Source: a phage
Sequence record: PZ049338.1
Strand: one strand, 5' to 3'
Length of the DNA stretch: 64,000 nt
Within the stretch, counting starts at the first letter, position 1; each line of letters begins with the position of its first letter. Positions 22,552 to 45,703 of the stretch are shown in pieces. The notes below the pieces were generated by a model. The model was given only the letters and a program-made list of their open reading frames with translations. It did not search any database and was not told the origin of the DNA. The position numbers and the translations under genes are program-made.

Positions 22552-23024
22552 TTTCGTTCCTGTAATAGTTTACGGAGCCTATCAAACTCAGCAAGCATCC
22601 AACCATATTGAGGTTGGTTAATTACTGTAGCATTATTAGGTTGTCCATAATAATAGTAATGCTCAAATGGCAATGTAGATTCAGAAAGCAAGATGCGGAT
22701 ATCCCGATGCTGTCTCAGTTTACAACGAATAGCTGCAAGGATAACTTCCTGATGCTCAAGCTCCATATTACCTCTGGTGTCAATACGGAACTCTTTAACA
22801 GTTTTACCAATACGTTTGGAGCCATGACCAGATGCCAGTCTGAATTCATCAAACTGACAACCAGTTAAGTAGTAATGCCAGAAGCCTTCCATTGAACGGA
22901 ATGAACCATATCCATCAACAATGAAGTCTCTGTCGTACAAGTTAGAAAGCATTCTACCAAGTTCAGTGTGACCTCTTGAGTAGATATTGATGTGCTCAAC
23001 ACCATCCAATGTGGGGTTTATCAA
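22548..23024 (-). CDS. Hypothetical protein (158 aa)
   Basis: ORF coupled to neighbours; weak resemblance to NADAR/YbiA-type fold only. Confidence 0.35.
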   Translation of the reverse strand: MINPTLDGVEHINIYSRGHTELGRMLSNLYDRDFIVDGYGSFRSMEGFWHYYLTGCQFDEFRLASGHGSKRIGKTVKEFRIDTRGNMELEHQEVILAAIRCKLRQHRDIRILLSESTLPFEHYYYYGQPNNATVINQPQYGWMLAEFDRLRKLLQERK

Positions 23025-23269
23025 AACGGAATATCCTCTTCTAACTGTCTACGAACCTCAGCCTCTGACATTTCAACACAGACAGGGCAATACCACTGAT
23101 TGTTGAGAACCGTTCCCCAGCCGCTTGCTACGGCCCCTGTTGTGGTTCGTATGCCACATGGACAAGGGACTAAGCCCTCGTCGTCAAGAATAAGTTTAGA
23201 TTTAGTTTTAGCCACCAAATAACTCCTTCGCCTGCTGTTTAAACTTCGCAACTTCTTCCGGGTTGTCAC
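23021..23269 (-). CDS. Small basic zinc-ribbon protein ending in SSB-like tail EEDIPF
   Basis: CPC...CPVC motif; C-terminus LEEDIPF resembles E. coli SSB tip DDDIPF. Confidence 0.4.
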   Translation of the reverse strand: MTTRKKLRSLNSRRRSYLVAKTKSKLILDDEGLVPCPCGIRTTTGAVASGWGTVLNNQWYCPVCVEMSEAEVRRQLEEDIPF

Positions 23270-23777
23270 AGTAGTTTAAGTCAGCTTCAAGTAATGCGTA
23301 ATGGATAACTTTCAAAAGATCTTGAAGACCATTCTTATCTTTGTGCCGGTATGCATACTTAATCATATTGCACTGTTGAAAATTTAACTGAGGATTTGCG
23401 TTGTAGAATTCAATTGGCTGAATACGCCCACTACCTGCTTGATAGTGAGAACCACCAACCATAGTGCTTAATGAATTACCCTTAGATGCCATCGCTAATT
23501 GCTCCGTGTGGTCATGTGAATAGTCTACTGGGGCAGTTTTATGTCCAGTAAGCATTGGTACGCAAATGTGGACTTCATTACGCTTACCCACATCAATTGC
23601 CTTTCTTTCATTACTTAATTCATACCCTGTCATTTGGGCTAGGTTATGAAGTTGGTCAGACACTATCTCATACATCTTTCTAAAAGCTTTGGCAGATAAG
23701 GATGCTTCCTCGTATTTTCGGCTTAATACCTGAAGTTCCGCCTCAGTCTCGAAGTGATTAATCATCGTCTTCATCAT
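23208..23777 (-). CDS. Hypothetical protein (189 aa); weak DUF3310-like resemblance
   Basis: GGSHY...IQPIEF motif region; assignment from memory only. Confidence 0.35.
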   Translation of the reverse strand: MMKTMINHFETEAELQVLSRKYEEASLSAKAFRKMYEIVSDQLHNLAQMTGYELSNERKAIDVGKRNEVHICVPMLTGHKTAPVDYSHDHTEQLAMASKGNSLSTMVGGSHYQAGSGRIQPIEFYNANPQLNFQQCNMIKYAYRHKDKNGLQDLLKVIHYALLEADLNYCDNPEEVAKFKQQAKELFGG

Positions 23778-23863
23778 CCTCAGATTTCTTAATCATAATC
23801 ATCATGCCCATTAATAGTAACATGAAAGCCAATACAAACAAATCACTAACAAATAAAGACGGG

Positions 23864-24208
23864 TTAGTAAACATAACAAGGTTTTCCTAATCGTTTCATC
23901 TCTGAAATCATATGCTTAGTCCCTTTGGACTCACCATCCCACATAATAATCGCTTGGTCGGCGTAGAGAGCCATCTTTGCATTGCGCAAGTGACCAGCCT
24001 TTTTACCATGTATGTGCCATTCGGCTGGGAATCGTTTAACTGGAGCACGACAACGAGCAGCTATACGCTCGCCATGTTGGTCTGGCCCTCGGGCTGTACC
24101 TGATACTACTTCGGTAATAGTCCTGCGGATATCCTTAGGAATCTGATTCCATTGAACCACAAACTCCTCCCAAGTTATATCACGACTTCCGGCAATGATA
24201 GTCTTCAT
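23864..24208 (-). CDS. SLOG/DUF2493-like (YspA-type) small protein
   Basis: IIAGSRD...MWDGESKGT pattern of the DprA/LOG-like SLOG superfamily. Confidence 0.45.
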   Translation of the reverse strand: MKTIIAGSRDITWEEFVVQWNQIPKDIRRTITEVVSGTARGPDQHGERIAARCRAPVKRFPAEWHIHGKKAGHLRNAKMALYADQAIIMWDGESKGTKHMISEMKRLGKPCYVY

Positions 24209-24209
24209 G

Positions 24210-24419
24210 TCAGAGTCCTTCTACGGTCTTACCTATTACGAAAACCTCTTCATCTGGGAAACGAGCTAAGTAACGCTGACCTGCTTCTTCAGCAGCCTCA
24301 GTTGTTGAGTGAACACTCTCACAGAACCATTCCCACTGACAGTAAGGGCTATCACTATATGTAGTAGCCATCAAAATAAATACCATCATATTAAAACCTG
24401 CTAGATAAGTCAGCACCAT
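24210..24419 (-). CDS. Hypothetical protein (69 aa)
   Basis: ORF in operon context. Confidence 0.3.
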   Translation of the reverse strand: MVLTYLAGFNMMVFILMATTYSDSPYCQWEWFCESVHSTTEAAEEAGQRYLARFPDEEVFVIGKTVEGL

Positions 24420-24831
24420 GTGCCGATATACGCTTATACTTCAGCGTCATTTCATAAGTAGAGGTTGCTTTTGTATATGCAATCCACTCTACACCCAATT
24501 CCATTGCAACTTCACGCATCCAACGATAACCACCCACGAGAGCACGCCTGTTAGCGTCTGTGGAGAACGCAACTAGTACAGACATACAATCACCTACATG
24601 CATATCAACTTCTCGGTAGAAGGCCATTGAGGCCACTATATTGCCATCATCACCGAACACTACATACTCATACCGGTTCATACTTTCAATGAGTATTTTT
24701 GTATTATAGTAGAACTCGAATGACTCTCGATGCTGGAAAAGGGGCTGACCAGCCCACACAACACCAGCAAATCTTGGAGAGAATCCTGCTGTGGGGCTGT
24801 TTGGCCCCTTAATGTATTTATGTACAGGCAT
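24391..24831 (-). CDS. Hypothetical protein (146 aa)
   Basis: ORF in operon context. Confidence 0.35.
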   Translation of the reverse strand: MPVHKYIKGPNSPTAGFSPRFAGVVWAGQPLFQHRESFEFYYNTKILIESMNRYEYVVFGDDGNIVASMAFYREVDMHVGDCMSVLVAFSTDANRRALVGGYRWMREVAMELGVEWIAYTKATSTYEMTLKYKRISAHGADLSSRF

Positions 24832-24845
24832 GGTCAGTTCCTTAA

Positions 24846-25100
24846 TTAATCACAACTAGAGCTAGAGCCAGAGTCACAGCTAGAACTACCACTGTCGTAA
24901 TTATCACTAGATGTTGCGATTGTAGTGGAAGTGGAGATACCTGCATCATCAGAAGTTACAGTTGCACGCTTAGTTGTCTTCTTAGCTACAACCTTCTTAT
25001 CTTCAGGGGTAGGGATGGTGCCATAACGAATCTTCTCGTTACAACGCATCAGTTCAAACATATTGCTATGAGTTTCTTTACCACATGCTACACAAGTCAT
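24846..25100 (-). CDS. Hypothetical protein (84 aa), Ser-rich C-terminus
   Basis: ORF in operon context. Confidence 0.3.
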   Translation of the reverse strand: MTCVACGKETHSNMFELMRCNEKIRYGTIPTPEDKKVVAKKTTKRATVTSDDAGISTSTTIATSSDNYDSGSSSCDSGSSSSCD

Positions 25101-25369
25101 TAATGTGCTCCTATAAAAGATTTATTTGAGATACTAGTTGGGCCGGTACAGTAATGAGAACCTGTAAAGTAACCACCACAAATTTGACAAGTGTAATCCA
25201 TGCTGGAGAACGGTTGTCCTGTGTTATTTACTGGAATCACTTCGCCATTACGGCCACGATTTGCTCGTACAAACCGCTTTGCAGCGGCAAGTAGAACATC
25301 ATAACCCATCTCTGGGCTTAATCCTTCAGACACAGCGATTGCTCGCTCTAACTGGGATAGTGTGTACAT
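25100..25369 (-). CDS. Hypothetical Cys-containing protein; start uncertain (25369 to 25537)
   Basis: Longest ORF overlaps ligase 3' end by 158 nt; an internal Met at ~25369 avoids the overlap. Confidence 0.3.
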   Translation of the reverse strand: MYTLSQLERAIAVSEGLSPEMGYDVLLAAAKRFVRANRGRNGEVIPVNNTGQPFSSMDYTCQICGGYFTGSHYCTGPTSISNKSFIGAH

Positions 25370-25379
25370 TTCATATACT

Positions 25380-26471
25380 TTATTCAATTGGATTTCCTTC
25401 TGCATCACATTCGCGGACGTAGAGTCCGACAGGGAACTGTGGTAAGCCATCGTTAGTGAGGGCTTGGTATTTGTAGGTAATCCATTTACCAAGGAGTTTA
25501 ACTTGGCTATCATATTTCCGAAAATCATGTCCACCACGCATTTTACACTTGAAGTAATTCTTAGTACCCTTCATCTGGCAGACGAGTACACCCTCTTCAT
25601 TAAGGTCTTTCTCAACGTGTGTTACGAATGCCTCAGCATCCTGCATTAACTTCCACTTCTGTAAGTTATGAGAGCGATGATTGAACTCGTAAAGACCATT
25701 CACATTACGAAGCATCATACCTTCATATCCATCATTAATGAATCTGTTCAGTAGAATCTGAGCAGAGATTTCATTATTGACTAAGATGTTAGGTACAACC
25801 TTGATGAACTGAGTTCTTACTTTAGTAACATCAGCAAGCATGTCATGTCGTGTTTCCCAAGTCACATCTGACACTGGAATATCAAACACATGGAACTCAA
25901 GTCGTGATGTATCTTTGTTAGGCTTCTTAGCCGCACTGACGATGTTTTGAAGAGGTAGTCCGTGGATGTACAACTCACCATCCAGCTTAGTGAATCCTGT
26001 CCGTTCAGATACGTCAATGATTTCTTTCTTTAAATGCTCATGGCAGTCATATGTCTTACCGCCTCGGCTATGGAGGATAACCCCTTCATGAGTGATCTCA
26101 GCAATGCATCGAAGCCCGTCAAGCTTAGGAGAAACGTAGCAAGGCCAACTAATACGATGTCCCACTTTTGTATAATCGTGGGCCAACATGGGGAGGATTT
26201 CTCCGACACCCATCGCTTCCTCAACAGTGGGTCGGTAGCATTTATCGATTTGTTTGTTGTATTTTGATTCAGCTTCCAACAGAGCTTGTTCTTGTGCTGT
26301 CGTTTCATTTGCACGTCCTACATTCTTAGGCTTAGCAACAGTCTCCTTGATTTGCATCTTACCACCAAGACGACCATGTGTGACAATAACAGTATCATCA
26401 GAGACTCCGACAGTCCAAATCTTAATGTTACCCTTCTTGTCCTTAGCAAACAACTCTTTACAATAAACCAT
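25380..26471 (-). CDS. ATP-dependent DNA ligase
   Basis: Adenylation motif I KLDGLR; ATG at 26471 with AAGGA SD; track start 26477 is TTG. Confidence 0.8.
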   Translation of the reverse strand: MVYCKELFAKDKKGNIKIWTVGVSDDTVIVTHGRLGGKMQIKETVAKPKNVGRANETTAQEQALLEAESKYNKQIDKCYRPTVEEAMGVGEILPMLAHDYTKVGHRISWPCYVSPKLDGLRCIAEITHEGVILHSRGGKTYDCHEHLKKEIIDVSERTGFTKLDGELYIHGLPLQNIVSAAKKPNKDTSRLEFHVFDIPVSDVTWETRHDMLADVTKVRTQFIKVVPNILVNNEISAQILLNRFINDGYEGMMLRNVNGLYEFNHRSHNLQKWKLMQDAEAFVTHVEKDLNEEGVLVCQMKGTKNYFKCKMRGGHDFRKYDSQVKLLGKWITYKYQALTNDGLPQFPVGLYVRECDAEGNPIE

Positions 26472-26489
26472 TCTCAATCCTTAGAGACG

Positions 26490-26511
26490 AAAAAGGCACC
26501 CGAAGGTGCCC
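26490..26511 (-). terminator. Rho-independent terminator (UUCG tetraloop) upstream of ligase
   Basis: On - strand GGGCACC-TTCG-GGTGCC followed by TTTTT. Confidence 0.5.
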
Positions 26512-26518
26512 TCTTAAA

Positions 26519-26989
26519 TTACAGGTTTTTAGTTGCACGCATAACTGCTGCAATGTTGGCGATATCTGTAGCTGACACAGAATCAAGGCCAAGTTCCTGG
26601 ATAACTTTCACAACATCCTTTGGGTCAATGTCGTCAGCCTCATCCACTGCAATCGAGCCTTCCACTTGAGCATTTTCACGAGGCTCTTCAAGATTGCCTT
26701 CACGAACCAGAGTACCATCAGAAAGGTCAGTAACGTCTTCAACATCCGTGGTATCAAGTGCATCATAGTCATTCACCGTAGCTTCTTTACCCTTGAACTC
26801 AAATACATCAGAACCTGAAGCTACAAGAGCACTCTCATAGGATGCTCGGGTCGTCTCCAATGTCTGGCCGCTCGTCATCGTAATATACACTGTCGAGTTC
26901 TGTGCAAAGCTCACCGCTTCCACTTTCTCCATGTTCACAAATACTTCCCGATTCGCATTCGCTAACGTCACTTGATAAAACTTCGCCAT
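26519..26989 (-). CDS. Acidic protein (156 aa)
   Basis: Good SD (TAAGGA); start overlaps 3' end of exonuclease gene by ~155 nt; D/E-rich C-terminal half. Confidence 0.45.
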   Translation of the reverse strand: MAKFYQVTLANANREVFVNMEKVEAVSFAQNSTVYITMTSGQTLETTRASYESALVASGSDVFEFKGKEATVNDYDALDTTDVEDVTDLSDGTLVREGNLEEPRENAQVEGSIAVDEADDIDPKDVVKVIQELGLDSVSATDIANIAAVMRATKNL

Positions 26990-27806
26990 TATTTGTATCC
27001 TTACTTAGTTCATAATCTAACCAGTCCCAGCTAAACAGGTTGTCTGCTGTTTGACCGATGTATAGTAAACGTGCTTGTTCAAGCATAACTTCTTCGTAAT
27101 TCTCACCAAATACCTTTTTGTATTCAGCGGAAACCACATCAAACATTTCCCTCACAGTAGTAAGACCATCCAACAACTTGATAGCTGTTGCCTCACCAAC
27201 GCCTTTACGACGCAGTTGAAGTTTACCACCCCACATGACTTCTTTTCGAATACCACATCCGGGAATGTTATCGGTATTGTCTCCAGTCAGCATTTGCTGA
27301 AAGAAGAATAATTTAGATTCGAACTCTGGAACCCAATGTTTCAGAACTTCTGGTTGTCTATCACCACAAGCCCATCTATAATGCCAACCAAAACAAGTCC
27401 ACATGTCCTTGTCACGAGTAGCAATCAGTGTATTCTCAGGGTCATTACGCTGCTCTATTGCCATCCAGTCGTCAGCCTCAATACCATCCACAATGATGTG
27501 GTTATAATATTTGACTATATGCTTCTCAACTGTTTCGTAATGGAAAGGCCTCGCTGTGTTTGGGTCACGATTACCCTTGTACTCCTGCTGAACAGCAACC
27601 TCATTTCTGAAATTACCTTTACCAGACAATGCACAAATGTAACTGTCTCCCTTGTTAATCTTAATGACATGACGTATTAAATCATCTACAAGCTTAACAA
27701 TCTCTGTCTCGGGTGCCGGTATATACTCACCCTTAATGTAAGGATGAGCAGCTTTAATAGCACCAATCTGATACCGAAGAATGTCAGCGTCAATCAGTAT
27801 ACGCAT
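26835..27806 (-). CDS. 5'-3' exonuclease / flap endonuclease (T7 gp6-like)
   Basis: MRILIDADIL N-terminus, EADDWM and LTGDNTDNIPG motifs resembling T7 gene 6 exonuclease. Confidence 0.8.
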   Translation of the reverse strand: MRILIDADILRYQIGAIKAAHPYIKGEYIPAPETEIVKLVDDLIRHVIKINKGDSYICALSGKGNFRNEVAVQQEYKGNRDPNTARPFHYETVEKHIVKYYNHIIVDGIEADDWMAIEQRNDPENTLIATRDKDMWTCFGWHYRWACGDRQPEVLKHWVPEFESKLFFFQQMLTGDNTDNIPGCGIRKEVMWGGKLQLRRKGVGEATAIKLLDGLTTVREMFDVVSAEYKKVFGENYEEVMLEQARLLYIGQTADNLFSWDWLDYELSKDTNNGEVLSSDVSECESGSICEHGESGSGELCTELDSVYYDDERPDIGDDPSIL

Positions 27807-27994
27807 TAGTTCTTCTCGTCAAATTGCTTAAGGGCACCGACTAGAGCATCAGCTTTAAACTTAGCTGTTGGTAGAGAAGGTTCTTCAACCTCCCGAACAT
27901 TGGTAGTCTTGTTTGTGATGTTGTACCAGCGCAATCCTTCATCCACTGTTACAACATACTTGTCATTCTCATAAACAACATTATCCATCGTCAC
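27806..27994 (-). CDS. Hypothetical protein (62 aa)
   Basis: ORF between sigma factor and exonuclease genes. Confidence 0.3.
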   Translation of the reverse strand: MTMDNVVYENDKYVVTVDEGLRWYNITNKTTNVREVEEPSLPTAKFKADALVGALKQFDEKN

Positions 27995-27997
27995 TCC

Positions 27998-28567
27998 TTA
28001 ACTCTGGAAGTTTACTGATTCTCTGTCAATGTTAGCGACTAATTGACTTCGAATACGATGGAGACTGACGTAAATGTTATTTGAAGACATGCCATACTTA
28101 TTGGCAACATCTTTAGTCGTGAGGTTCTTCAGGTAAACATCGGTGAACAATTCACGTTCTGATTCCTTAAGAGTCTCAAAAGCTCTCTGAACAAACGAGG
28201 AAGCTTCATCGGCTAGTAACTCACGAACAGGGTCAGTTAACCCATTATCATGGCATTCAAATTCGAGGACATTATCGTACATCTCCGTATCAACTCTGTC
28301 GAACTCTCGGCGTACATAACCATAACGAACATTGTTCGCAATAGTACCTATAACACCGCCTAACTTATCCCACTGGATTCTGTCCCAATACTGCCAAATC
28401 CTTAGCAGAGTTTCTTGAGCCAAATCTTCAGCCAGATGGTAATCTTTTTCCATGTAGTAGAATTGTTTCTGGAGAGGTTTCCAGAACTCTTCGTACAACT
28501 CTTCAAAAGTATATGTTTCTCGTTTTGGAGTAGGGGCACTAATTCTCTTAGCCATCATACATTCCAT
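27998..28567 (-). CDS. Phage-encoded sigma-70 family (ECF-like) sigma factor
   Basis: Region-2-like DLAQETLLRIWQYW and region-4 HTH LTTKDVANKYGMSSNNIYVSLHRIRSQL. Confidence 0.7.
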   Translation of the reverse strand: MECMMAKRISAPTPKRETYTFEELYEEFWKPLQKQFYYMEKDYHLAEDLAQETLLRIWQYWDRIQWDKLGGVIGTIANNVRYGYVRREFDRVDTEMYDNVLEFECHDNGLTDPVRELLADEASSFVQRAFETLKESERELFTDVYLKNLTTKDVANKYGMSSNNIYVSLHRIRSQLVANIDRESVNFQS

Positions 28568-28575
28568 GTACTGAT

Positions 28576-28796: not shown

Positions 28797-29570
28797 TTAG
28801 AACGGGCAATCGTCGTCAAAATCCAGACCTTCATCTGGTTTATTGGTCGGCTTATTGTTACCGTACTTCTGTTCTTCACGAGTAGTGGTATTCTTTGGCT
28901 TTTCACCATCACCACTGTCGGCAATTGGTTCTTTGCCTGCATACGGAATGTGTTGTGCATCTTTAGCTTCTGCAATCACATCACGCTGGAATTTGTAAAG
29001 CTTGGAGTATGCTTGCAGCATCTCAGGGGTATCAATGTAAGGGTTATATGCTACCAGTTCTGAACGTGCTTCACCAACTTTGGACTTGTTTCGAGAAGAA
29101 ACAGCACCAATGGAAGTCACTTTGTTACGCTTCACACCTTTCTTCGTGGTATAAGAACCAACACCGATTGAAACAACTTCATTCAGGCGTTCCATGAACC
29201 ACTCGAGATTACGAGGAACTTCGGTAATAGTTGGGTCAATTGCTTTACAGAGGTCGAATACACCACCACGTTTAGCACCGGGGAAGAGGTAGAAGTCTTT
29301 GAACTGACAGGAAGGGCGAGGGTCGATAGGCTTACCGACTTTATCTTCTTCACCTTCGTATGTGCGACCAGTTGCGTCAACGTCAATAAGTTCAAAAGCA
29401 ATGGTACACTTGAATGCGGGAGCTTTCGCTTCACCTTGCCAATCTGGTTGAGGCTGAACACCTAAGCCAACAAAGCGAACGATACGTGCGTCGAATACAT
29501 CATCTTCAATCGCGTCGTATACAGTGAAAGATTTTTTAGAAGTGGAAGTAGATGGAATAGCAGTAGTCAT
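28797..29570 (-). CDS. ssb: Single-stranded DNA-binding protein with acidic C-terminal tail
   Basis: C-terminus DFDDDCPF matches the SSB-Ct paradigm (E. coli DFDDDIPF); position in replication module. Confidence 0.65.
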   Translation of the reverse strand: MTTAIPSTSTSKKSFTVYDAIEDDVFDARIVRFVGLGVQPQPDWQGEAKAPAFKCTIAFELIDVDATGRTYEGEEDKVGKPIDPRPSCQFKDFYLFPGAKRGGVFDLCKAIDPTITEVPRNLEWFMERLNEVVSIGVGSYTTKKGVKRNKVTSIGAVSSRNKSKVGEARSELVAYNPYIDTPEMLQAYSKLYKFQRDVIAEAKDAQHIPYAGKEPIADSGDGEKPKNTTTREEQKYGNNKPTNKPDEGLDFDDDCPF

Positions 29571-29665
29571 TATTTAATATCCTTATTAATTAATCTCAAT
29601 GTTGAGAGAACTGTTTATATCTCTCGCTCAGTTGTATATAGATTAGTGTAAGATAACTGAAAATC

Positions 29666-31555: not shown

Positions 31556-31758
31556 CCATCACAAGTTAAGTCACCCATAAGTGACAGGGAGAGTAGGCGA
31601 GATTGTTCGTCACTGTAAAGCTGGTCAATCTCTTCTTTGAGTTTAGCCAGTTCAGTGAAATTAATCAACTGACCGTGTTCGAGGCAGTCCGTCTTAAATA
31701 CAAAGAGTGCTTCAACTTCTGTTGAATCTTCATCTGTATATTTATCAATATATTCCAT
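31543..31758 (-). CDS. Hypothetical protein (71 aa)
   Basis: ORF. Confidence 0.3.
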   Translation of the reverse strand: MEYIDKYTDEDSTEVEALFVFKTDCLEHGQLINFTELAKLKEEIDQLYSDEQSRLLSLSLMGDLTCDGCTI

Positions 31759-32988: not shown

Positions 32989-32990
32989 AT

Positions 32991-34835
32991 TCAATGGGTA
33001 TGGAACCAGCTTGCACCAAGCATTGAGTCTGAAGCTAATGGACATTCCATATTCAACGACTCTCCAGCTTTTTTAACACACTGGTCAATCAACTCTCTTA
33101 ATTTAACTACATCTTTGGTGGCGCAAGTGAACTGCATCTCATCGTGCATCATAATGACCTGATTTGCAAACAGCTTATCACGTTTAACCCAAGAAATCAG
33201 GTAGCAGTCAGCAATCTTCATAACAATAGAACCAGCAGACTGGAGCATTGTATTCAGTGCTTTATGGGTCATCACCTCACCGGAGTTAGGGTCACGACGC
33301 ATAATCAACTTACGACCATCAATAGCTGGAACCCAACCATGTTTCGCTGCGAATGTTTGTACCCACTCCATAAGAACTGGAATACAAGGACATTCTTTCA
33401 GGAACTTATCACGAGCTTCCTGACCTTCGGCAACACCACCACCTAACTGAGCACCTAAGTTCGCATTACCAGCGCCATAGAGGAAAGCATAGATAAACGT
33501 CTTAGCCTGCTTACGAGTTGCTAGACCTGCAAGCTTCTGGTTGTGCGAGTGGATATCACCATTCAGAAGAACTTCACGATACTCTAGAGCGGAGTCGAGT
33601 GCTTTCTGATAATACTCAGCCTCTCGTGTCTTACCAGCTTCGAGAGCTTCCTCAAGCAGCATACGAGATACAGCAATGAGGTAGTGAGTAAGCATACGAA
33701 GTTCAAGACCTGCACCATCCCCACCTACGAAAGCCTGTTGGCCCTCTGGGATAAGGTATGTACAGTGTCCTACATCTTCCCACTTCTTACCATTGAACTC
33801 CTGCATGATGTTAGTCAGTGGCTTACGACGAAACTTGCCAGACTCAATCATTTTCTTGGTGAGCTTAGGAACCAGAATGCCACGACGACCCATCTCAGAG
33901 TCACAGTAGTCACCCTTAAATAAGTGACGACATTCTTCACCCAGCAACGCACCAGCAGCAGGAATGTTAACAATTGTCTTGTGACGCATACGAGCAGTTG
34001 GTGTAGCGCATGGGTTGGCTTCACCAGACAGCTTACCATCAGCACGTACTTGAGCAATCAAACCTTCTAAGAGGGAACGACGATGCGCAAGCTGCATACG
34101 ATGCTTCAAGAGCGTCAATGCCTGACTCTCATCCTCACCAACTGAATCAAAAGAATCATCAGTGATTTGTGGAGAAGTCGGCCAGAACTGTTTCAGTAGA
34201 AGTTTCTTCTTAATGGCATCGAAGTTAGGAACCTTTCTGCTCAGGTCGAAACCTAAAGCAACCAGAATTGCCTTCATGTAACCCTTCGTCTGGTCACGGA
34301 AGTGTGTATCAATAAACCCGTTAACAGCGTTGGTGAATGCAAGTCTGTCCTCAGAATCACACTGTTCATTGATGAACTTAGCGTATGAGGTTTTCTCCAA
34401 ACGTTTGCGATACTGCCAAACTTGGAAAGGTGTCTTCTTCTCGTTCCACTCAGTAGGAACCCAACCCATATCCATCATGACTTTCTTCAGTCGAGATGTT
34501 TTACCAGGGTCGAATGGTGTATACCATACAGCGGAGAATGGCCCACTAACATCTTCAGAAGAGAGTCCATGAATGTCCATGTACTTCTGAACGAATGCTT
34601 TAGGTTGACCGTTCAACTTAAACGGAGCTTTATACTCTGAACCCTTGTGCATCATAGGAGGAAGCAAAGGGATTAATTCGAGGTCAATCTTGAGGATACG
34701 CTCATTCAATGAGTGAACCAACCAAGAAGCACCACGCTTATCAAAGTTACAGCCATGTTTCCACTGATTCGAAATCAAATCAGCGACTTTCTGTTCTAAC
34801 AGGAATGGTTTAGTCCAATCCGGCTTGATATCCAT
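32991..34835 (-). CDS. DNA polymerase, family A (T7 gp5-like) polymerase domain only
   Basis: Motif B RKQAKTFIYAFLYGAG, motif C MMHDEMQF, GAGLELRMLTHY; lacks the 3'-5' exonuclease domain. Confidence 0.85.
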   Translation of the reverse strand: MDIKPDWTKPFLLEQKVADLISNQWKHGCNFDKRGASWLVHSLNERILKIDLELIPLLPPMMHKGSEYKAPFKLNGQPKAFVQKYMDIHGLSSEDVSGPFSAVWYTPFDPGKTSRLKKVMMDMGWVPTEWNEKKTPFQVWQYRKRLEKTSYAKFINEQCDSEDRLAFTNAVNGFIDTHFRDQTKGYMKAILVALGFDLSRKVPNFDAIKKKLLLKQFWPTSPQITDDSFDSVGEDESQALTLLKHRMQLAHRRSLLEGLIAQVRADGKLSGEANPCATPTARMRHKTIVNIPAAGALLGEECRHLFKGDYCDSEMGRRGILVPKLTKKMIESGKFRRKPLTNIMQEFNGKKWEDVGHCTYLIPEGQQAFVGGDGAGLELRMLTHYLIAVSRMLLEEALEAGKTREAEYYQKALDSALEYREVLLNGDIHSHNQKLAGLATRKQAKTFIYAFLYGAGNANLGAQLGGGVAEGQEARDKFLKECPCIPVLMEWVQTFAAKHGWVPAIDGRKLIMRRDPNSGEVMTHKALNTMLQSAGSIVMKIADCYLISWVKRDKLFANQVIMMHDEMQFTCATKDVVKLRELIDQCVKKAGESLNMECPLASDSMLGASWFHTH

Positions 34836-38466: not shown

Positions 38467-38468
38467 GG

Positions 38469-40602: not shown

Positions 40603-40785
40603 TAACTATCCTTAGTCTTCGTCGTTGTCGTTAAAGCGGAATGGGTCGGAGCATTCAATTACCCCAGCGTCTTCGTCTAAGCGAAAGGTCATTCCTGCAA
40701 TTTCAAAATCGGAGTCCATCATGTGTTATTCCTTAACAAGAGGCCACACTTATTATAGTGACCTCTAGAGAGTATCCTTACACCG

Positions 40786-41283
40786 TTATTTGTAAAAGAT
40801 TCTGCTATGTGGAGGATTCAACCAATCAAATCCAGCCAGATTGCAAAGATGCTCATACAAAGCAACGGTAACATTTACGTCCTGCTCACAGTAAGTGAAC
40901 ATGTCTTCAGTGAACACATCCCAAGCATTCTCTGTCTTGCCATAATCGCCTTTATAGATACCAAGCTCACGACCCCATGAATCCAGTGAATGACCACCGG
41001 GGCGGTCAGGCTGGAGCATACGGCTGAGAACTAAGGTATCAAAGGTGTTCATGTGGAATTCAAGACCACTGAGTTTAGCCAGAGTCGGGAGGTCATAATC
41101 AATGATGTTATGGCCAACCGTTAAATCGAAGGACATTAAATCCTTCATATACTTGTCTAAATCTTGTGGTCTATAACCCTGTCGCTCTTTCGGTTGACTA
41201 GGGTCAATAATCCAGGCACAGTGAAATTTGGAGACATCAATATAGAGATTGTTAGTCTCTATATCTGTACAAGCAATCTTCAT
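40786..41283 (-). CDS. DNA polymerase 3'-5' exonuclease domain (T7 gp5 N-terminal homolog), separately encoded
   Basis: Exo I DIETNNL, Exo II VGHNIIDYDLPTL, Exo III YCEQD; N-terminus closely parallels T7 DNA polymerase. Confidence 0.8.
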   Translation of the reverse strand: MKIACTDIETNNLYIDVSKFHCAWIIDPSQPKERQGYRPQDLDKYMKDLMSFDLTVGHNIIDYDLPTLAKLSGLEFHMNTFDTLVLSRMLQPDRPGGHSLDSWGRELGIYKGDYGKTENAWDVFTEDMFTYCEQDVNVTVALYEHLCNLAGFDWLNPPHSRIFYK

Positions 41284-41292
41284 TAATACACC

Positions 41293-43089
41293 TTAGAATG
41301 GTCGACTATCATCACGACTGACTTCATCAGAGTCAGGCTCCTCTCCCGGGATAGAGAAAGGATTCTTAGGGTCATACTCATCAGCAGTACGCTGTCTCAA
41401 TCGACCTGTAACTGGGTTATAGGAAGTTGGGACAATACCTGTCTGACCGAAGTTACGGTCTTTCAGGAGACGAATCTGAGACAAGTTACGAGCATCACCA
41501 TCTGCCTGCTTGTTACGCTCAAAGCCCAGAATTAACTGGGAGAATCGCATAAGAGCACGCGAACCTGTGAACTGCACTTCCTGAACCTGACCACCTTCCT
41601 CGTGCGGAGCACCAGTTTTAGGTGGGTTCAAGTGACTGAATACGAAACATGTGAACTCCAGTTCGTTACACAGTCCAGCCAGTTCTACAGCAATACGAGC
41701 AACTTCGGTGTTAATCTCAGTCGCTGATAAGTGTGATACCAGTGCGGTGATGTTATCTAAGAAGATGAACTTCACACCATGCTCCACAACCCAGAAACGC
41801 ATACAGCGTTTGATATCTTCCCAATCATTCTGACCAAAGTTCCGGTAAAGGAACAGATGGCCATCATACTTCAGAGCTTCACTCTTAAGCAGTTCAGGGT
41901 CGAACTCAACATCTGGGCGATGGAAAGGTATATTAGCAGATTTACCTGCGATGTTTTTGATTGTGTTACCTACAGTCTCTTCCAACATGAAAGCGCCCAC
42001 TTTCTCTTTGTGGACGTTAATGAGGTGAGCACTAAGTTCGTGAGCAAGCAGTGTTTTACCACCACCCACACCACCACCAATTGCAATCACTTCACCATAT
42101 CGGAGACCGAAGGTTAACTCTGTAAGACCTTCCCAAGGGAATGATAAACCCCACTCAGGCTTCTTCAGCGCATCTTCCAGACACTCAGCTACAGTCGTTG
42201 AGCCAGCCGGAGATTCTTTTGCAGCATTGAAGCGTAAGCAGTTATTAAGTTCGAGGTCACGACCGTCCATGAGGAGGTCATTAGCGTCCTTAATTGGAGC
42301 ACCATCTTTACGGAACCCTTTAGGGATTCGGGCAATCTTAATGTTCGGATACATCGCTCGAATCTTGTTCACAGCATCATCACCAGCTTCATCGTTATCC
42401 ATGCAGACAACAACTTCAGCGAATGATTCTACGAATGCACGGTCACGAGAGAACGCAGCCGCTGCTGATTTCGAGCCATCCGGTAAAGAAACACATGCTG
42501 GTTTGTATGTACTCTTAGAGTTCTCTGTCAATACCTGAAAACCAGACATTGCACTGAGTTCGTCTTCAAATACAAACAACTTACCTGTGTACACATCACC
42601 AAGACGTGCTTGGGACATACCGAAGAAACTACAACCTGATGCTGCACCTACAGCATAAAAACCTTTAGGTTCTAAGGTGCGAACTTTGTAAGCACGGATT
42701 GCTCCGTCCTTTTCCTTCGGGTAAAACTGAGAGATAGGTTCCCGGTTAGTGGATGAAAGACCAATACGAACACCAAAACGTTCGGCAACTTCTTTCTTCA
42801 CACCACGAATGGTGCAGTTCTGAATAGGAAGCTCTTGGACTTCCGCTAAACGTTCTTGTACTTCTTCCTCGGTCAGTTCACGGAATTCATGACGAACTCC
42901 TTCCCACTTCTCGCGGTTACCTTCTTCAACCTGTTCGTAAAAACCATCACGACTACAGTAAACCCACTGCTCGCCGGTCTCAACATTTTCCCAATGCTGA
43001 AGATGGTTGCCAGTTCGGTCATGGCCTGCTGCCGTACAGGTTGGACATGCAGAATCACCAAGGATTCTTTTGTTTCCATAAACTTTCAT
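41293..43089 (-). CDS. Primase-helicase (T7 gp4-like)
   Basis: N-terminal zinc finger CPTC...C, TOPRIM region, DnaB-type Walker A GGGVGGGKT; acidic C-terminus ending RPF. Confidence 0.85.
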   Translation of the reverse strand: MKVYGNKRILGDSACPTCTAAGHDRTGNHLQHWENVETGEQWVYCSRDGFYEQVEEGNREKWEGVRHEFRELTEEEVQERLAEVQELPIQNCTIRGVKKEVAERFGVRIGLSSTNREPISQFYPKEKDGAIRAYKVRTLEPKGFYAVGAASGCSFFGMSQARLGDVYTGKLFVFEDELSAMSGFQVLTENSKSTYKPACVSLPDGSKSAAAAFSRDRAFVESFAEVVVCMDNDEAGDDAVNKIRAMYPNIKIARIPKGFRKDGAPIKDANDLLMDGRDLELNNCLRFNAAKESPAGSTTVAECLEDALKKPEWGLSFPWEGLTELTFGLRYGEVIAIGGGVGGGKTLLAHELSAHLINVHKEKVGAFMLEETVGNTIKNIAGKSANIPFHRPDVEFDPELLKSEALKYDGHLFLYRNFGQNDWEDIKRCMRFWVVEHGVKFIFLDNITALVSHLSATEINTEVARIAVELAGLCNELEFTCFVFSHLNPPKTGAPHEEGGQVQEVQFTGSRALMRFSQLILGFERNKQADGDARNLSQIRLLKDRNFGQTGIVPTSYNPVTGRLRQRTADEYDPKNPFSIPGEEPDSDEVSRDDSRPF

Positions 43090-43156
43090 GACTTAATCCT
43101 TTTCCATGTCATTAAGCTTGCTGCGGGTATTACTTAGTGCCTTAGGTTAGATAACA

Positions 43157-43831
43157 TTACAGAGTGTCATAGTAGTCTGCGCGATTATGCAGACACCAGT
43201 CACCCGACTCAACACGGTTACTGTCGCCTTGGTCTTCATCAATGTGATAAATCCAAGCCTTTGCGAAGGAACCATCATCCAGTTGGATTTCAACCTGCGT
43301 ACGGTTATAGAAACCATTCTCAGGGTCACAGGCACTGTACCCTTCCAGCATGTCGTATGCACCAGTCAGACCTTCCAGAGGTGCTTCAAATACATCAACA
43401 ACAACCTGCTTGCCAGACTTGTTAGCCTTAAGGTTCACGGAAGGGAAGTAGGAGCCACCGTAGCGATATAAATCGAACTGGTCTACAGTCACACCCTTAC
43501 TTACAAATTCACCGCCGCCACGAGCGTTTACGTGGAAATTCTGCATGTTGCGACGCAGAGAGCCATAAGTTGCGATGAATACTTTACCGTCTGAAGGAAT
43601 TACTAAGTTCTTTGACATTACTTGTCCTGTTTTAGGTTGTAGATAATATTTAACTTCGACAAATCGCCATGTGTTCTGGAGGTTCTCTGCCATTTCTTTT
43701 GCTTCTGGGTAAGTTAAGCCACAGCCAAGCTGATAACCTTCCTCACCCTTACTCATGCGACCAATCAGTAAATAACGAACTTCATGGTCACCTGTTAGTG
43801 GTTCTTTAATTGAGAGCTTCATCTTATACAC
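43157..43831 (-). CDS. GGCT/AIG2-like (gamma-glutamyl cyclotransferase fold) protein
   Basis: YGSLRR motif characteristic of AIG2/GGCT family. Confidence 0.45.
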   Translation of the reverse strand: MYKMKLSIKEPLTGDHEVRYLLIGRMSKGEEGYQLGCGLTYPEAKEMAENLQNTWRFVEVKYYLQPKTGQVMSKNLVIPSDGKVFIATYGSLRRNMQNFHVNARGGGEFVSKGVTVDQFDLYRYGGSYFPSVNLKANKSGKQVVVDVFEAPLEGLTGAYDMLEGYSACDPENGFYNRTQVEIQLDDGSFAKAWIYHIDEDQGDSNRVESGDWCLHNRADYYDTL

Positions 43832-43887
43832 TTCTCACCCCTTGTTATGTTCGACAAAGGCCACTCCGAAGAATGACCTTTAGCAAA

Positions 43888-44424: not shown

Positions 44425-44432
44425 TAAGAATC

Positions 44433-44454
44433 TCTCTTTATATATGTGGATTAA
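44433..44454 (-). promoter_or_regulatory. Copy B of conserved 22-bp promoter-like motif
   Basis: Reverse complement GTTAATCCACATATATAAAGAG followed by AGATTCTTAATG (start codon). Confidence 0.35.
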
Positions 44455-44457
44455 CTA

Positions 44458-44997
44458 TTACAATTTCTGAGTCACTGTTTCGTAGGTGGTTACTACCTTT
44501 TTCTTCTTCTCAGTGATACCGGAAAGAAGTGCCCAATAGAAACGACCGCCATGACGTTCAGCCATCTCAGCAGCAATCTGCTCTGCCTTCTCAGCAGTTT
44601 CCACCACTACGCGAGGTGGACGAGATGATTCAGGACACCACAAGATATACTTACCGAGGTTCTTATCTTTAGGAGAAGCCTTGGCTTCCGCTTTAGCTGT
44701 CTCTTGGGTAGCAGTAGAACTTTCACCCAAATCGTTGAGACGCCATGTATACAAGGCAGTACCTGATAGTAGGGTCAGTCGGCTACGAATGATGAAGCTG
44801 GTTGGTCGCTGATTCAACTGTATAGAATACAATTGACGACCATGCTTGTCAATTAAGCACACTTCCCAACGACCCGGATATAACAAGTAGATTCCAATAG
44901 TGTACATGAACCTATTACCAATACGAGCCTCTGCACGGTCATGGTCATGGAAGTTGAAGTTAACAGAAGAGGGGATGTGGATTAACTTCTTAGACAT
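44458..44997 (-). CDS. Hypothetical protein (179 aa)
   Basis: ORF. Confidence 0.4.
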   Translation of the reverse strand: MSKKLIHIPSSVNFNFHDHDRAEARIGNRFMYTIGIYLLYPGRWEVCLIDKHGRQLYSIQLNQRPTSFIIRSRLTLLSGTALYTWRLNDLGESSTATQETAKAEAKASPKDKNLGKYILWCPESSRPPRVVVETAEKAEQIAAEMAERHGGRFYWALLSGITEKKKKVVTTYETVTQKL

Positions 44998-45203
44998 TAT
45001 TTACCAACCTTAGTTACGCTTTCAACAAGAGCATAAGGGAATGCGGCTTGCAATTCCATGTGACCTGCCTTACCACCAATAGTCTTGTTCTCAATGAAGA
45101 TGTAGAACTTGTAGTGGTGAGGGTCAATCTGAACCATTGTTGCAGGAATGATTTTATCCGCAGAGTCAAGAAGTTTTACACGATATTTAATAATCTCAGC
45201 CAT
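44997..45203 (-). CDS. Hypothetical protein (68 aa)
   Basis: ORF. Confidence 0.3.
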   Translation of the reverse strand: MAEIIKYRVKLLDSADKIIPATMVQIDPHHYKFYIFIENKTIGGKAGHMELQAAFPYALVESVTKVGK

Positions 45204-45207
45204 TTCT

Positions 45208-45477
45208 TTAATCCCAGTTAGGTTGGAGGTCTTTCATTGCGAAGTCACGTACTTCACCACGTTCACGGCAAACAGCTTTTACGAACCACTGTTCACCTTC
45301 ATGGTACTCAGAGATACCATACCAAATATTGATTGGTACAATAGTGCGCTCTGCTGTTTCACCGCGCCAGTTAGTGTAGGTCACACGGTGTGGTACTTGT
45401 AGAACTAATAACTTTGGTCGTGCTGTTTCAGAAGGGACTTTCGTCGTCATAATCTTCACCGTAGACAATAGAATCAA
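45208..45477 (-). CDS. Hypothetical protein (89 aa)
   Basis: ORF. Confidence 0.3.
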   Translation of the reverse strand: MILLSTVKIMTTKVPSETARPKLLVLQVPHRVTYTNWRGETAERTIVPINIWYGISEYHEGEQWFVKAVCRERGEVRDFAMKDLQPNWD

Positions 45478-45703
45478 TGAACGCTTGATGTTTTGCCAAC
45501 TTCTTTTTCATGAGTTTGTTGTGGACTTGAAGAATATTAGAGACCTCTTTGGTGACAGTCACATGAGGTACAGCAACACCTTCAGCGAATTTTAGTCGCT
45601 TAAAGGGAGCGACAAGGTAAATGAACTTAGCAACTTCAGTGTTGTTTCGTAAATTTACCTCTTCCCCATTAGTTAACTTATAATACACCCAGAGATTCCA
45701 CAA
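45428..45703 (-). CDS. Small protein ending in SSB-like acidic tail DYDDESPF
   Basis: C-terminal motif resembling the SSB C-terminal tip. Confidence 0.35.
   Translation of the reverse strand: MWNLWVYYKLTNGEEVNLRNNTEVAKFIYLVAPFKRLKFAEGVAVPHVTVTKEVSNILQVHNKLMKKKLAKHQAFIDSIVYGEDYDDESPF

What the first reader, a model, noticed from the sequence alone, without database searches (positions are those of the whole stretch)
23021..45703. Four proteins end in an SSB-like acidic tail terminating in Pro-Phe
The SSB (28797-29570, ...DFDDDCPF), the primase-helicase (41293-43089, ...SRDDSRPF), an 82-aa zinc-ribbon protein (23021-23269, ...LEEDIPF) and a 91-aa protein (45428-45703, ...DYDDESPF) all end in acidic-x-P-F. 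This matches the E. coli SSB C-terminal tip (DDDIPF) and the T7 gp2.5/gp4 acidic Phe-terminal tails that dock on DNA polymerase. The two small proteins could be competitive regulators of the phage replisome or decoys that capture host SSB-interacting proteins.
Basis: partly seen in the sequence, partly recalled or inferred. Interest (0 to 1): 0.7.

Follow-up and report, generated by a model that had tools for sequence, protein, structure and literature searches.

The report
Shared SSB-type tail on phage proteins
In this Salmonella phage, four proteins (the DNA-binding protein SSB, the replication helicase and two tiny proteins of unknown function) all end in the same short acidic "…Pro-Phe" peptide that bacteria use to plug repair and replication enzymes onto SSB, and this tail is strictly conserved in related phages, which suggests a shared docking code that the two small proteins may use to join or disturb the replication machinery.

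Summary
[DE][DE]xxPF at the C-terminus is expected 0.003 times in 119 proteins and is seen 4 times.

The tails are conserved wherever the proteins occur:
- **SSB-like protein:** 90 of 95 homologs end in PF. The consensus of the last 9 residues, (V/M)DFDDDIPF, is E. coli SSB's own tip.
- **Primase-helicase (a T7 gp4 homolog):** keeps [RK]PF across Grimontviridae, and RPW in a Kuravirus-like phage.
- **86-aa family:** P and F are invariant at 32-49% identity.
- **Zn-ribbon family:** keeps [IL]PF in four diverged lineages.

New points:
- The "SSB" belongs to no known SSB sequence family. It is a predicted OB fold plus a disordered linker plus a host-type tip.
- Each small gene overlaps or abuts the end of an upstream enzyme gene (gp1.7-like DUF3310; ATP-grasp).
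- In phage 7-11 the 5'-3' exonuclease also ends in PF.
- T7's tail-docking basic patch is not conserved in this polymerase, so the receptor is open (phage replisome and/or host SSB partners).

Verdict: a selected SSB-Ct-type docking motif reused on several proteins. This is a new variant of a known kind, and the function of the small proteins is untested.

The parts
28797..29570 (-). SSB-like protein, 257 aa: predicted OB-fold core (about res 13-200), disordered linker (about res 215-248), tip LDFDDDCPF
   Evidence: Translation. AF2 model pLDDT 85, with residues 227-248 below 50. Foldseek PDB top hits are PrgE, bacterial SSBs, PriB and RPA (E 5e-4, low TM). phrog_6599, function unknown. No Pfam match. 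90 of 95 homologs end in PF. It is the only region of the window hit by E. coli SSB in tblastn, and only through linker plus tip.
28800..28826 (-). Codons for the SSB-like tip L-D-F-D-D-D-C-P-F (host SSB-Ct-type acidic tip)
   Evidence: Codon-level comparison with E. coli ssb, and a logo of 91 family tails: D77/D71/D80 at positions -6 to -4, P 91/91, F 90/91.
41293..43089 (-). T7 gp4-type primase-helicase, 598 aa, tail ...EEPDSDEVSRDDSRPF
   Evidence: Pfam DnaB_C and Toprim_2. phrog_239. C-terminal domain 32% identical to T7 gp4. Tail is [RK]PF in 7-11, GAP52, BUCT695 and Privateer, and RPW in SU7.
23021..23215 (-). Zn-ribbon protein, 64 aa (corrected start): MAK..., CxC...CxxC, C-terminal helix, tip QLEEDIPF
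   Evidence: RBS AAGGAG-N7-GTG; the start overlaps the stop of the upstream gene. Independent 64-aa call P0124, and homologs P0128 (...ELEELPF) and P0129 (...WSDDIPF). Annotated 66-aa genes in SeKF_80 and pSal-SNUABM-01. Privateer gp029 is a Zn ribbon ending ...KDLPF at the same position.
45428..45688 (-). Small protein, 86 aa (corrected start), phrog_24116: beta-hairpin, helix, long helix, disordered tip DYDDESPF
   Evidence: P85 and F86 are invariant in 19 sequences at 32-49% identity. All family members end [DE][DE]x[IMPSC]PF apart from two divergent tips. AF2 pLDDT 79.6, tip about 50. No fold match. The family occurs only in Grimontviridae.
23208..23777 (-). DUF3310 protein (annotated in relatives as nucleotide/dNMP kinase); its stop overlaps the start of the Zn-ribbon gene
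   Evidence: Pfam DUF3310. The order DUF3310 then Zn-ribbon-PF is conserved in the window, the 7-11 group, Privateer, GAP52 (remnant) and metagenomic L020.
45678..46865 (-). RimK-like ATP-grasp ligase; its 3' end overlaps the start of the 86-aa gene by 11 nt
   Evidence: Pfam RimK/Dala_Dala_lig_C. The same overlap (11-20 nt) is seen in 7-11, GAP52, BUCT695 and Privateer annotations.
32991..34835 (-). Family A DNA polymerase (candidate receptor of the tails; not shown)
   Evidence: Pfam DNA_pol_A. 27% identity to T7 gp5, E 2e-38; the T7 front basic patch is not conserved; a clade-specific basic insertion lies before motif A.
40786..41283 (-). Separate polymerase 3'-5' exonuclease subunit (part of the candidate receptor)
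   Evidence: PHROG 'DNA polymerase exonuclease subunit'.
26835..27806 (-). 5'-3' exonuclease. Here it has an acidic tail ending ...DIGDDPSIL (no PF); its ortholog in phage 7-11 ends ...DYEDGTPF
   Evidence: phrog_107. C-termini compared.

Best explanation
The acidic-x-Pro-Phe ends are a conserved, selected C-terminal docking peptide of the bacterial SSB-Ct type: a free C-terminal Phe plus Pro that fits a hydrophobic pocket, with preceding Asp/Glu that lie on a basic ridge. They sit at the end of flexible tails.

The phage's own single-strand-binding protein is a non-canonical OB-fold protein that carries a tip equivalent to the host's. Its gp4-type primase-helicase carries the same kind of tail. 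As in T7, I infer that these two use the tail to couple to partners at the fork.

Two lineage-specific small proteins carry the same tip: a 64-aa Zn-ribbon protein and an 86-aa helical protein. Each gene overlaps the end of an upstream enzyme gene (gp1.7-like DUF3310 protein; ATP-grasp ligase). They would therefore reach the same receptor pockets, either as adaptors that bring themselves and probably their co-expressed partner to the replisome, or as competitors that tune who occupies the pocket.

Shown: the motif, its non-random occurrence, its strict conservation, the disordered context, the helicase homology and the gene overlap. Inferred: that it is a docking peptide, the identity of the receptor (phage polymerase complex and/or host SSB-interacting proteins), and the role of the small proteins.
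For: - Non-random occurrence: expected 0.003, observed 4.
- SSB-like family: 90 of 95 homologs end in PF; the rest are one PW and four truncated or divergent sequences. The last-9 consensus equals E. coli SSB's MDFDDDIPF. In P0031 the last 13 aa are identical to E. coli's with 8 of 39 nt different, all synonymous, which indicates purifying selection on the peptide.
- 86-aa family: P and F are invariant while the rest is 32-49% identical.
- Zn-ribbon family: [IL]PF is kept in four lineages that are barely alignable. GAP52 keeps the terminal helix plus LPF after losing the Zn ribbon.
- Helicase: a T7 gp4 homolog with [RK]PF or RPW.
- T7 precedent: acidic F-terminal tails of gp2.5 and gp4 dock on gp5 (PMC12339929; T7 tails verified).
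- The 7-11 exonuclease also ends ...EDGTPF, so up to five replication-module proteins carry the tip.
- The tips lie in low-pLDDT segments.
- All carriers sit in the early/replication gene block on one strand.
Against: - No binding data of any kind.
- The T7 docking site (front basic patch) is not conserved in this polymerase, so the T7 analogy fails at the receptor.
- Helicase tails have K/R at position -3 where canonical SSB-Ct has I/L/V, so they may read a different pocket from the other three.
- The SSB identity of the 257-aa protein rests on a predicted fold with low TM-scores (0.26/0.47) to solved SSBs.
- The 86-aa fold has no match, so nothing independent points to DNA replication for it.
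- One homolog (pSal-SNUABM-01) ends ...DDKPPFEI, that is, the Phe is not terminal.
Confidence: 0.6

Rival explanations
1. Purely phage-internal, T7-like wiring. All PF tails dock on the phage's own polymerase complex (PolA + exonuclease subunit + thioredoxin-like protein). The likeness to host SSB-Ct is convergence on a generic 'acidic + aromatic carboxyl end' solution, and host proteins are not involved.
For: - The helicase is a gp4 homolog with an acidic aromatic end.
- T7 gp2.5 and gp4 tails bind gp5.
- The phage encodes a full replisome: pol, exonuclease subunit, primase-helicase, ligase, 5'-3' exonuclease.
- The 7-11 exonuclease also carries the tip.
- This polymerase clade has its own conserved basic insertion...SGKFRRKP..., before motif A.
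Against: - T7's docking patch is absent.
- The SSB-like tip matches the host tip at all nine positions, including F at -7, D at -8 and I at -3, which is far more than a generic acidic-aromatic end needs. T7 itself manages with ...DGDF.
Confidence: 0.25
2. Host take-over by mimicry. The tips are mimics of host SSB-Ct whose main targets are host SSB-interacting proteins. The phage SSB recruits useful host enzymes to phage ssDNA. The two small proteins are soluble decoys that titrate host SSB partners (PriA, RecQ, RecJ, ExoI, chi, Ung...) away from host SSB, shutting down host replication restart or repair, or protecting phage DNA.
For: - Residue-for-residue identity of the family consensus with E. 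coli SSB-Ct, maintained by purifying selection.
- The small proteins have canonical [DE][DE]x[IL]PF tips in most lineages.
- They are small, lineage-specific early-region proteins, typical of host-directed phage effectors.
- No literature precedent was found, so this would be new.
Against: - The helicase and the 7-11 exonuclease have no obvious reason to bind host SSB partners, yet they carry PF.
- Both small genes overlap or abut phage enzyme genes, which fits a subunit or adaptor better than a free decoy.
- All hosts in the sample are Gammaproteobacteria with the same SSB tip, so no host-tracking covariation could be tested.
Confidence: 0.25
3. The tips bind the DNA-binding groove of the phage SSB-like protein itself, as the gp2.5 tail does in T7. 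The small proteins and the helicase would then regulate loading or unloading of SSB on ssDNA rather than docking on a polymerase or on host enzymes.
For: T7 gp2.5's acidic tail competes with ssDNA for its own groove (cited in PMC5686142 and PMC12339929). pLDDT rises slightly at the extreme tip of the SSB-like model (57 against 44-46 in the linker).
Against: Nothing was tested directly. This does not explain the exact match to host SSB-Ct. The small rise in pLDDT is weak evidence.
Confidence: 0.1
4. The shared ending is something other than a docking motif: a chance or compositional coincidence, a C-terminal degron, or a recognition tag for the neighbouring ATP-grasp (RimK-like) ligase that modifies protein C-termini.
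For: The 86-aa gene always directly follows a RimK-like ATP-grasp gene. From general knowledge, RimK extends the acidic C-terminus of ribosomal protein S6.
Against: - Chance is excluded, and conservation across families argues for selection.
- RimK-type enzymes act on C-terminal Glu, not Phe (general knowledge).
- SSB, helicase and the Zn-ribbon protein are not next to the ligase.
- SU7 has the ATP-grasp gene but no 86-aa homolog.
Confidence: 0.05

Closest known systems
Bacterial SSB C-terminal tip (SSB-Ct, E. coli ...MDFDDDIPF) and its network of SSB-interacting proteins
   Same: Extreme C-terminal position, invariant Pro-Phe, an Asp/Glu run at -6 to -4, often Ile/Val/Leu at -3 and Phe at -7, preceded by a disordered linker. 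The family consensus of the phage SSB-like protein is identical to E. coli's last nine residues.
   Different: - The carrier core is not a member of the bacterial SSB family by sequence.
- The tip is also found on a helicase, a nuclease (in 7-11) and two small non-SSB proteins.
- In this particular phage, position -3 is C, R, S or I.
Bacteriophage T7 gp2.5 (SSB) and gp4 (primase-helicase) acidic Phe-terminal tails that dock on gp5 DNA polymerase
   Same: Two replisome proteins of one phage share an acidic tail ending in Phe. The helicase here is a gp4 homolog (32% identity in the C-terminal domain) and the polymerase a gp5 homolog (27%).
   Different: - T7 tails end ...DGDF and ...DTDF, without Pro.
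- T7's receptor patch (K587/K589/R590/R591) is in an insertion absent from this polymerase.
- The SSB-like protein shows no sequence similarity to gp2.5.
- T7 has no known small accessory proteins with the tail.
Enc34 ORF6 / PrgE-type atypical OB-fold SSBs of phages and plasmids
   Same: A single OB-fold-derived core with extra elements, an unstructured acidic C-terminus, and a replication-module location. PrgE is the best solved-structure match (E 5e-4).
   Different: TM-scores are low (0.26/0.47) and there is no sequence relationship. The family (phrog_6599) is uncharacterised, and ssDNA binding has not been shown.

Membership tests
SSB-Ct-type C-terminal docking motif | Phe is the very last residue (free carboxylate) and is preceded by Pro | tested here: met
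   All four window proteins. 91/91 P and 90/91 F in the SSB-like family. Invariant in the 86-aa family. Exception: pSal-SNUABM-01...PPFEI.
SSB-Ct-type C-terminal docking motif | A run of acidic residues within positions -6 to -3 | tested here: met
   The tips are EEDIPF, DDDCPF, DDSRPF and DDESPF. Family logo: D77/D71/D80 of 91.
SSB-Ct-type C-terminal docking motif | Hydrophobic residue (Ile/Leu/Val) at position -3 | tested here: inconclusive
   Met for the Zn-ribbon protein (I). In this phage it is C (SSB-like), S (86-aa) and R (helicase). Most homologs of the SSB-like and 86-aa families have I/V; helicases consistently have K/R.
SSB-Ct-type C-terminal docking motif | The tip sits at the end of an intrinsically disordered segment | tested here: met
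   SSB-like residues 227-248 have pLDDT below 50. The 86-aa tip has pLDDT about 50 after a long helix. Not modelled for the helicase or the Zn-ribbon protein.
SSB-Ct-type C-terminal docking motif | Binds a hydrophobic pocket plus basic ridge on partner proteins | not testable with these tools
   No multimer prediction or binding assay was available.
Bacterial SSB family (Pfam SSB OB fold) | Sequence match of the core to the SSB family | tested here: not met
   No Pfam hit at E<=1 for 39 members. The profile against all PDB sequences finds no SSB. E. coli SSB aligns only to the linker plus tip.
Bacterial SSB family (Pfam SSB OB fold) | OB fold resembling SSB | tested here: inconclusive
T7 gp2.5 / Enc34-type phage SSB | Sequence or fold similarity to gp2.5 or Enc34 ORF6 | tested here: not met
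   No significant blast similarity to gp2.5. Neither gp2.5 nor Enc34 ORF6 is among the top 50 Foldseek PDB hits. BFVD hits are uncharacterised podophage proteins plus one DUF669 protein.
T7 gp4-type primase-helicase | Toprim primase domain plus DnaB-like helicase domain, homologous to gp4 | tested here: met
   Pfam Toprim_2 and DnaB_C. phrog_239. tblastn to T7 gp4: 32% identity.
T7-type tail-to-polymerase docking | The polymerase has the front basic patch that receives the tails (T7 K587, K589, R590, R591) | tested here: not met
   T7 VKWKRRWIKG aligns to FAAKHGWVPA. The segment is part of a T7-specific insertion absent from all Grimontviridae, SU7 and PSA40 polymerases.

The most novel reading that the evidence does not exclude
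The two small PF-tailed proteins are a new class of phage 'SSB-tip' effectors, in one of two forms. (a) They are soluble mimics of the host SSB C-terminus that titrate the host SSB interactome (PriA, RecQ, RecJ, ExoI, chi, Ung, RNase HI) during infection. (b) They are dedicated adaptor subunits that use the SSB-tip code to plug their co-expressed enzymes (a gp1.7-like nucleotide kinase and an ATP-grasp ligase) into the replication fork, giving a motif-based coupling of precursor synthesis or protein modification to the replisome.
Probability: 0.3. Interest if true: 0.8.

Novelty: new variant of a known kind. Interest (0 to 1): 0.6.

Why it matters
The SSB C-terminal tip is the central 'address label' of bacterial genome maintenance and a proposed antibiotic target. 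T7's paired gp2.5 and gp4 tails are the textbook case of tail-mediated replisome coupling.

A phage family with the following features would show that this label is a portable code that phages copy and redistribute:
- a non-homologous SSB core carries a tip equivalent to the host's;
- the helicase shares the ending, and in one genus so does the nuclease;
- two tiny, otherwise unclassifiable proteins carry the same tip under strict selection.

If the small proteins bind host SSB partners, they are natural peptide inhibitors of the SSB interactome. If they bind the phage replisome, they are a new kind of replisome accessory factor. Either way the system is small, genetically tractable (Salmonella, Cronobacter, Proteus and Aeromonas phages are in culture) and directly testable.

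Tried and rejected
- The search for related loci with the single SSB-like sequence found no relatives in IMG/VR because its patterns were too strict. I switched to annotated phage genomes.
- A profile of the SSB-like family against all PDB sequences gave only noise, Csm2 at E 0.24.
- Lenient Pfam scans of 39 family members gave nothing.
- Foldseek of the 86-aa model against the PDB gave no hit below E 4.8, so the fold is unassigned.
- Pfam and PHROG gave nothing for the Zn-ribbon protein.
- Frameshift-fusion idea: I considered that the Zn-ribbon ORF might be made by frameshift fusion with the DUF3310 protein, because 7-11 lacks an in-frame start. I rejected this. SeKF_80 and pSal-SNUABM-01 have an intact ATG-started 66-aa gene, and 7-11 differs by one extra A.
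- Nucleoside deoxyribosyltransferase: I considered that it is also a tail carrier, because Privateer's ends ...AEPF. I rejected this because the tail is not conserved in GAP52 or BUCT695.
- T7 receptor patch: I tested whether it is conserved in this polymerase, and it is not.
- Recent DNA transfer: I tested whether the tip was recently transferred as DNA from a host ssb gene. Eight of 39 nt differ, all synonymous, in the best case, so transfer is not recent.
- Literature searches for non-SSB proteins with SSB-like tips found no precedent, and nothing was found on an SSB of the phiEco32 group.
- There are no tRNA genes in the ORF-poor left end of the window.

Full report
**What the window is.** The window is nearly the whole genome of a Grimontviridae podophage. 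It is 96.6% identical over the replication region to Salmonella phage PKM.Hi.22.6. It is related at 72-80% nucleotide identity (locally) to Salmonella phage 7-11, Cronobacter phages GAP52 and A24 and Aeromonas phage BUCT695, and more distantly (by protein) to Proteus phage Privateer and to phiEco32/Kuravirus-like phages. Structural genes lie on the + strand (about 3.7-21.5 kb). The early, replication and nucleotide-metabolism genes lie on the - strand.

**Checking the observation.** All four ORFs are on the minus strand. Two starts need correction.
- The Zn-ribbon ORF has a perfect AAGGAG-N7-GTG start at 23215, which overlaps the stop of the upstream gene (GTGGCTAA). This gives 64 aa. An independent gene call of the same length and start exists in the public protein collection (P0124).
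- The second small gene starts at GTG 45688, giving 86 aa, as annotated in PKM.Hi.22.6.

**Chance is excluded.**
- Only 5 of 425 ORFs of at least 40 aa end in PF.
- In a 119-protein gene set, 0.17-0.28 PF termini are expected and 5 are seen.
- [DE][DE]xxPF$ is expected 0.003 times and seen 4 times (P about 3e-12). The motif was defined after seeing the data.
- The motif occurs 5 times anywhere in 19,385 positions, four of them at a C-terminus.
- The fifth PF ORF (2051-2197, +) is not acidic, is not annotated in the near-identical phage, and lies in an ORF-poor region. I treat it as non-coding.
- The roughly 3 kb of the genome outside the window has no further PF-tailed ORF.

Tips in graded relatives ("none" = no homolog found):

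| Protein | Window | 7-11 group | GAP52 | BUCT695 | Privateer | SU7 (Kuravirus-like) |
|---|---|---|---|---|---|---|
| SSB-like | DFDDDCPF | FDDDIPF | FDDDIPF | FDDDVPF | DFDDDVPF | FEEDDSPF |
| Primase-helicase | DDSRPF | DDSRPF | GKEKPF | GKDKPF | PSSKPF | EARPW |
| 86-aa protein | YDDESPF | FDDKIPF | QDEDIPF | YDDHIPF | NDDIPF | none |
| Zn-ribbon protein | LEEDIPF | ELEELPF | ELESLPF (Zn ribbon lost) | none | EIKDLPF | none |
| 5'-3' exonuclease | ...DDPSIL | ...YEDGTPF | ...VPYHED | ...TIEGSN | ...PIPCFG | ...LDKTW |

- **SSB-like family.** Of 95 database homologs down to 41% identity, 90 end in PF and one in PW. The other four look truncated or divergent at the C-terminus.
- **86-aa family.** In 19 aligned sequences, P85 and F86 are invariant while overall identity to the query is 32-49%. 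All members end [DE][DE]x[IMPSC]PF except two divergent tips (...EDKAMPF, and ...DDKPPFEI in pSal-SNUABM-01).
- **Zn-ribbon family.** An exhaustive HMMER scan of 1.84 billion representatives added a third lineage, P0129 (37% identity...WSDDIPF). The apparent lack of a start codon in the 7-11 copy comes from one extra A in that record. SeKF_80 and pSal-SNUABM-01 have intact, annotated 66-aa genes.
- **Outgroups.** Bruynoghevirus PSA40 has acidic tails without PF (helicase ...DDDTPI, exonuclease ...DDEEIFY). T7 has ...DEDGDF (gp2.5) and ...SNDTDF (gp4).

The tails are therefore under strong purifying selection in all four families, and the refutation test fails to refute.

**What the four proteins are.**

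1. *28797-29570, the "SSB".* It matches no Pfam family, even leniently for 39 members. It falls in PHROG 6599, of unknown function. It matches no solved-structure sequence and shows no blast similarity to T7 gp2.5. E. coli SSB aligns to it only through the linker and tip, and that is the only E. coli SSB hit in the whole window.
   - The AlphaFold2 model is confident (pLDDT 85). It has a beta-rich core (residues 13-200), then a disordered stretch (227-248 below 50), then the tip.
   - Foldseek against the PDB ranks PrgE first (an atypical plasmid OB-fold SSB, E 5e-4), followed by bacterial SSBs, PriB and RPA, but with low TM-scores.
   - The viral library shows many uncharacterised podophage proteins with the same fold.
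   - I therefore accept "the phage's SSB" as the best reading (OB-type core, disordered linker, acidic tip, replication-module context, no other SSB detectable). It is inferred, not shown, and it is not a member of the classical SSB or gp2.5 families by sequence.
   - E. coli SSB ends ...NEPPMDFDDDIPF. At each of the last nine positions, E. coli's residue is the family's most frequent residue (second most frequent, after V, at -9). In metagenomic homolog P0031 the last 13 residues are identical to E. coli's, while 8 of 39 nucleotides differ, all synonymously. This points to selection on the peptide, not recent gene transfer.
2. *41293-43089.* This is a genuine T7 gp4-type primase-helicase: Toprim_2 and DnaB_C domains, phrog_239, and 32% identity to T7 gp4 in the C-terminal domain.
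3. *23021-23215.* A 64-aa protein with a basic N-terminus, a CxC...CxxC zinc ribbon, a short C-terminal helix and the tip. In every lineage it lies immediately downstream of a DUF3310 gene, overlapping or abutting it. Relatives annotate that gene as a nucleotide kinase, and from memory I place it with the T7 gp1.7 kind. This holds in the window, the 7-11 group, Privateer, GAP52 and metagenomic contig L020.
4. *45428-45688.* An 86-aa protein in phrog_24116, predicted as a beta-hairpin, a helix, a long helix and a flexible tip. It has no structural match and is confined to Grimontviridae. Its start always overlaps, by 11-20 nt, the end of a RimK-like ATP-grasp ligase gene.

**How it most likely works.** The tip has every sequence feature of the bacterial SSB-Ct docking peptide. 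It is also the same kind of device as the acidic Phe-terminal tails of T7 gp2.5 and gp4, which dock on T7 polymerase. In T7 the terminal Phe is essential, and a DTDF peptide is seen bound to gp5 in PDB 6P7E (PMC12339929). Acidic tails are general for phage SSBs (PMC5686142).

My best explanation (confidence 0.6) is a shared docking code. SSB and helicase use it to couple to partners at the fork. The two small proteins use the same code to reach the same pockets, as adaptors or as competitors.

**The receptor is not identified.** I tested the literal T7 model. This PolA is a gp5 homolog (27% identity, E 2e-38), but T7's front basic patch (VKWKRRWIKG) aligns to FAAKHGWVPA. It also lies in a T7-specific insertion missing from all polymerases of this clade. 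A clade-specific basic insertion before motif A (...SGKFRRKP...) is a candidate only.

- *For a phage-internal receptor:* the helicase, and in 7-11 the exonuclease, carry PF, and the phage has a complete replisome.
- *For host receptors:* the nine-residue identity with the host tip is more than a generic acidic-aromatic end requires.
- Helicase tails have K/R at position -3 rather than I/V/L, so they may use a different pocket.
- These alternatives, together with binding to the SSB groove, a degron and an ATP-grasp tag, are listed as rivals with what would refute each.

**Comparison with the known, and novelty.** An SSB with an acidic PF tip and a gp4-like helicase with an acidic aromatic tail are both known kinds of thing. 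Four points are new:
- A non-homologous OB core carries a tip equivalent to the host's.
- The same tip is multiplied over four proteins in one phage (five in 7-11).
- Two small, conserved non-SSB proteins carry the tip, each gene overlapping or abutting an enzyme gene.
- The T7 receptor site is absent.

Full-text searches found no description of non-SSB phage proteins with SSB-like tips, nor of an SSB in the phiEco32/7-11 group. That library does not cover subscription journals. I rate this a new variant of a known kind, with interest 0.6. The most novel reading not excluded is that the small proteins are host-interactome decoys, or motif-based adaptors tethering enzymes to the fork. I give that a probability of about 0.3 and an interest of 0.8 if true.

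Noticed in passing
L002 (NC_015938.1, phage 7-11) about 31690-31745, minus strand: The 7-11 reference record has one extra A (AAAACAAGAC against AAAACAGAC in SeKF_80). This frameshifts the otherwise conserved 66-aa Zn-ribbon gene, which is therefore unannotated in 7-11. It is probably a homopolymer sequencing error.
   Followed up: yes
window 32584-33045 (-) and 32991-34835 (-); L001 11380-13835: A 153-aa HNH endonuclease ORF overlaps the 3' end of the intact 614-aa polymerase gene in the window. In the 96.6%-identical PKM.Hi.22.6, the polymerase is annotated in two pieces with small ORFs between them. This suggests mobile endonuclease or intron-type polymorphism in the pol gene. BUCT695 and SU7 also have split pol genes with HNH or endonuclease inserts.
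   Followed up: no
window 45678-54628 (-): A conserved block of an ATP-grasp (RimK-like) ligase with neighbouring genes that relatives annotate as glutamine amidotransferase, COOH-NH2 ligase and (further downstream, 43157-43831) gamma-glutamyl cyclotransferase. From memory, this resembles a predicted phage peptide-ligation or modification system. The PF-tailed 86-aa gene is its first downstream neighbour and overlaps the ATP-grasp gene.
   Followed up: partly
L004 30585-30716 (-) (GAP52 gp083): The positional equivalent of the Zn-ribbon protein in GAP52 is a 43-aa Lys/Glu-rich peptide that has lost the zinc ribbon but keeps the terminal helix and ...KELESLPF. It is effectively a tail-only mini-protein, or a decaying remnant.
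   Followed up: partly
window 26835-27806 (-); L002 35958-36869 (-): The 5'-3' exonuclease has an acidic tail in several lineages, but the ending varies: ...DDPSIL here, ...EDGTPF in 7-11, ...DKTW in SU7 and ...DDEEIFY in PSA40. The tail code appears to be gained and lost on this enzyme.
   Followed up: partly
P0110 (pSal-SNUABM-01 homolog of the 86-aa protein): This homolog ends ...FDDKPPFEI, so the Phe is not C-terminal. It is either a natural read-through or variant that should inactivate an SSB-Ct-type tip, or an error in the record.
   Followed up: no
window 27998-28567 (-): The gene immediately downstream of the SSB-like gene is the ortholog of the phiEco32-type ECF sigma factor (so annotated in 7-11, GAP52, BUCT695 and Privateer). 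The pair SSB-like gene then sigma factor is conserved across Grimontviridae and in metagenomic contig L017.
   Followed up: no
window about 20400-28000 against OR053651.1: The window and PKM.Hi.22.6 are colinear, but the coordinate offset between them grows by about 9.3 kb between the portal gene and window position 28000. PKM.Hi.22.6 therefore carries that much more DNA in that interval, so this phage is not simply a PKM.Hi.22.6 isolate.
   Followed up: no
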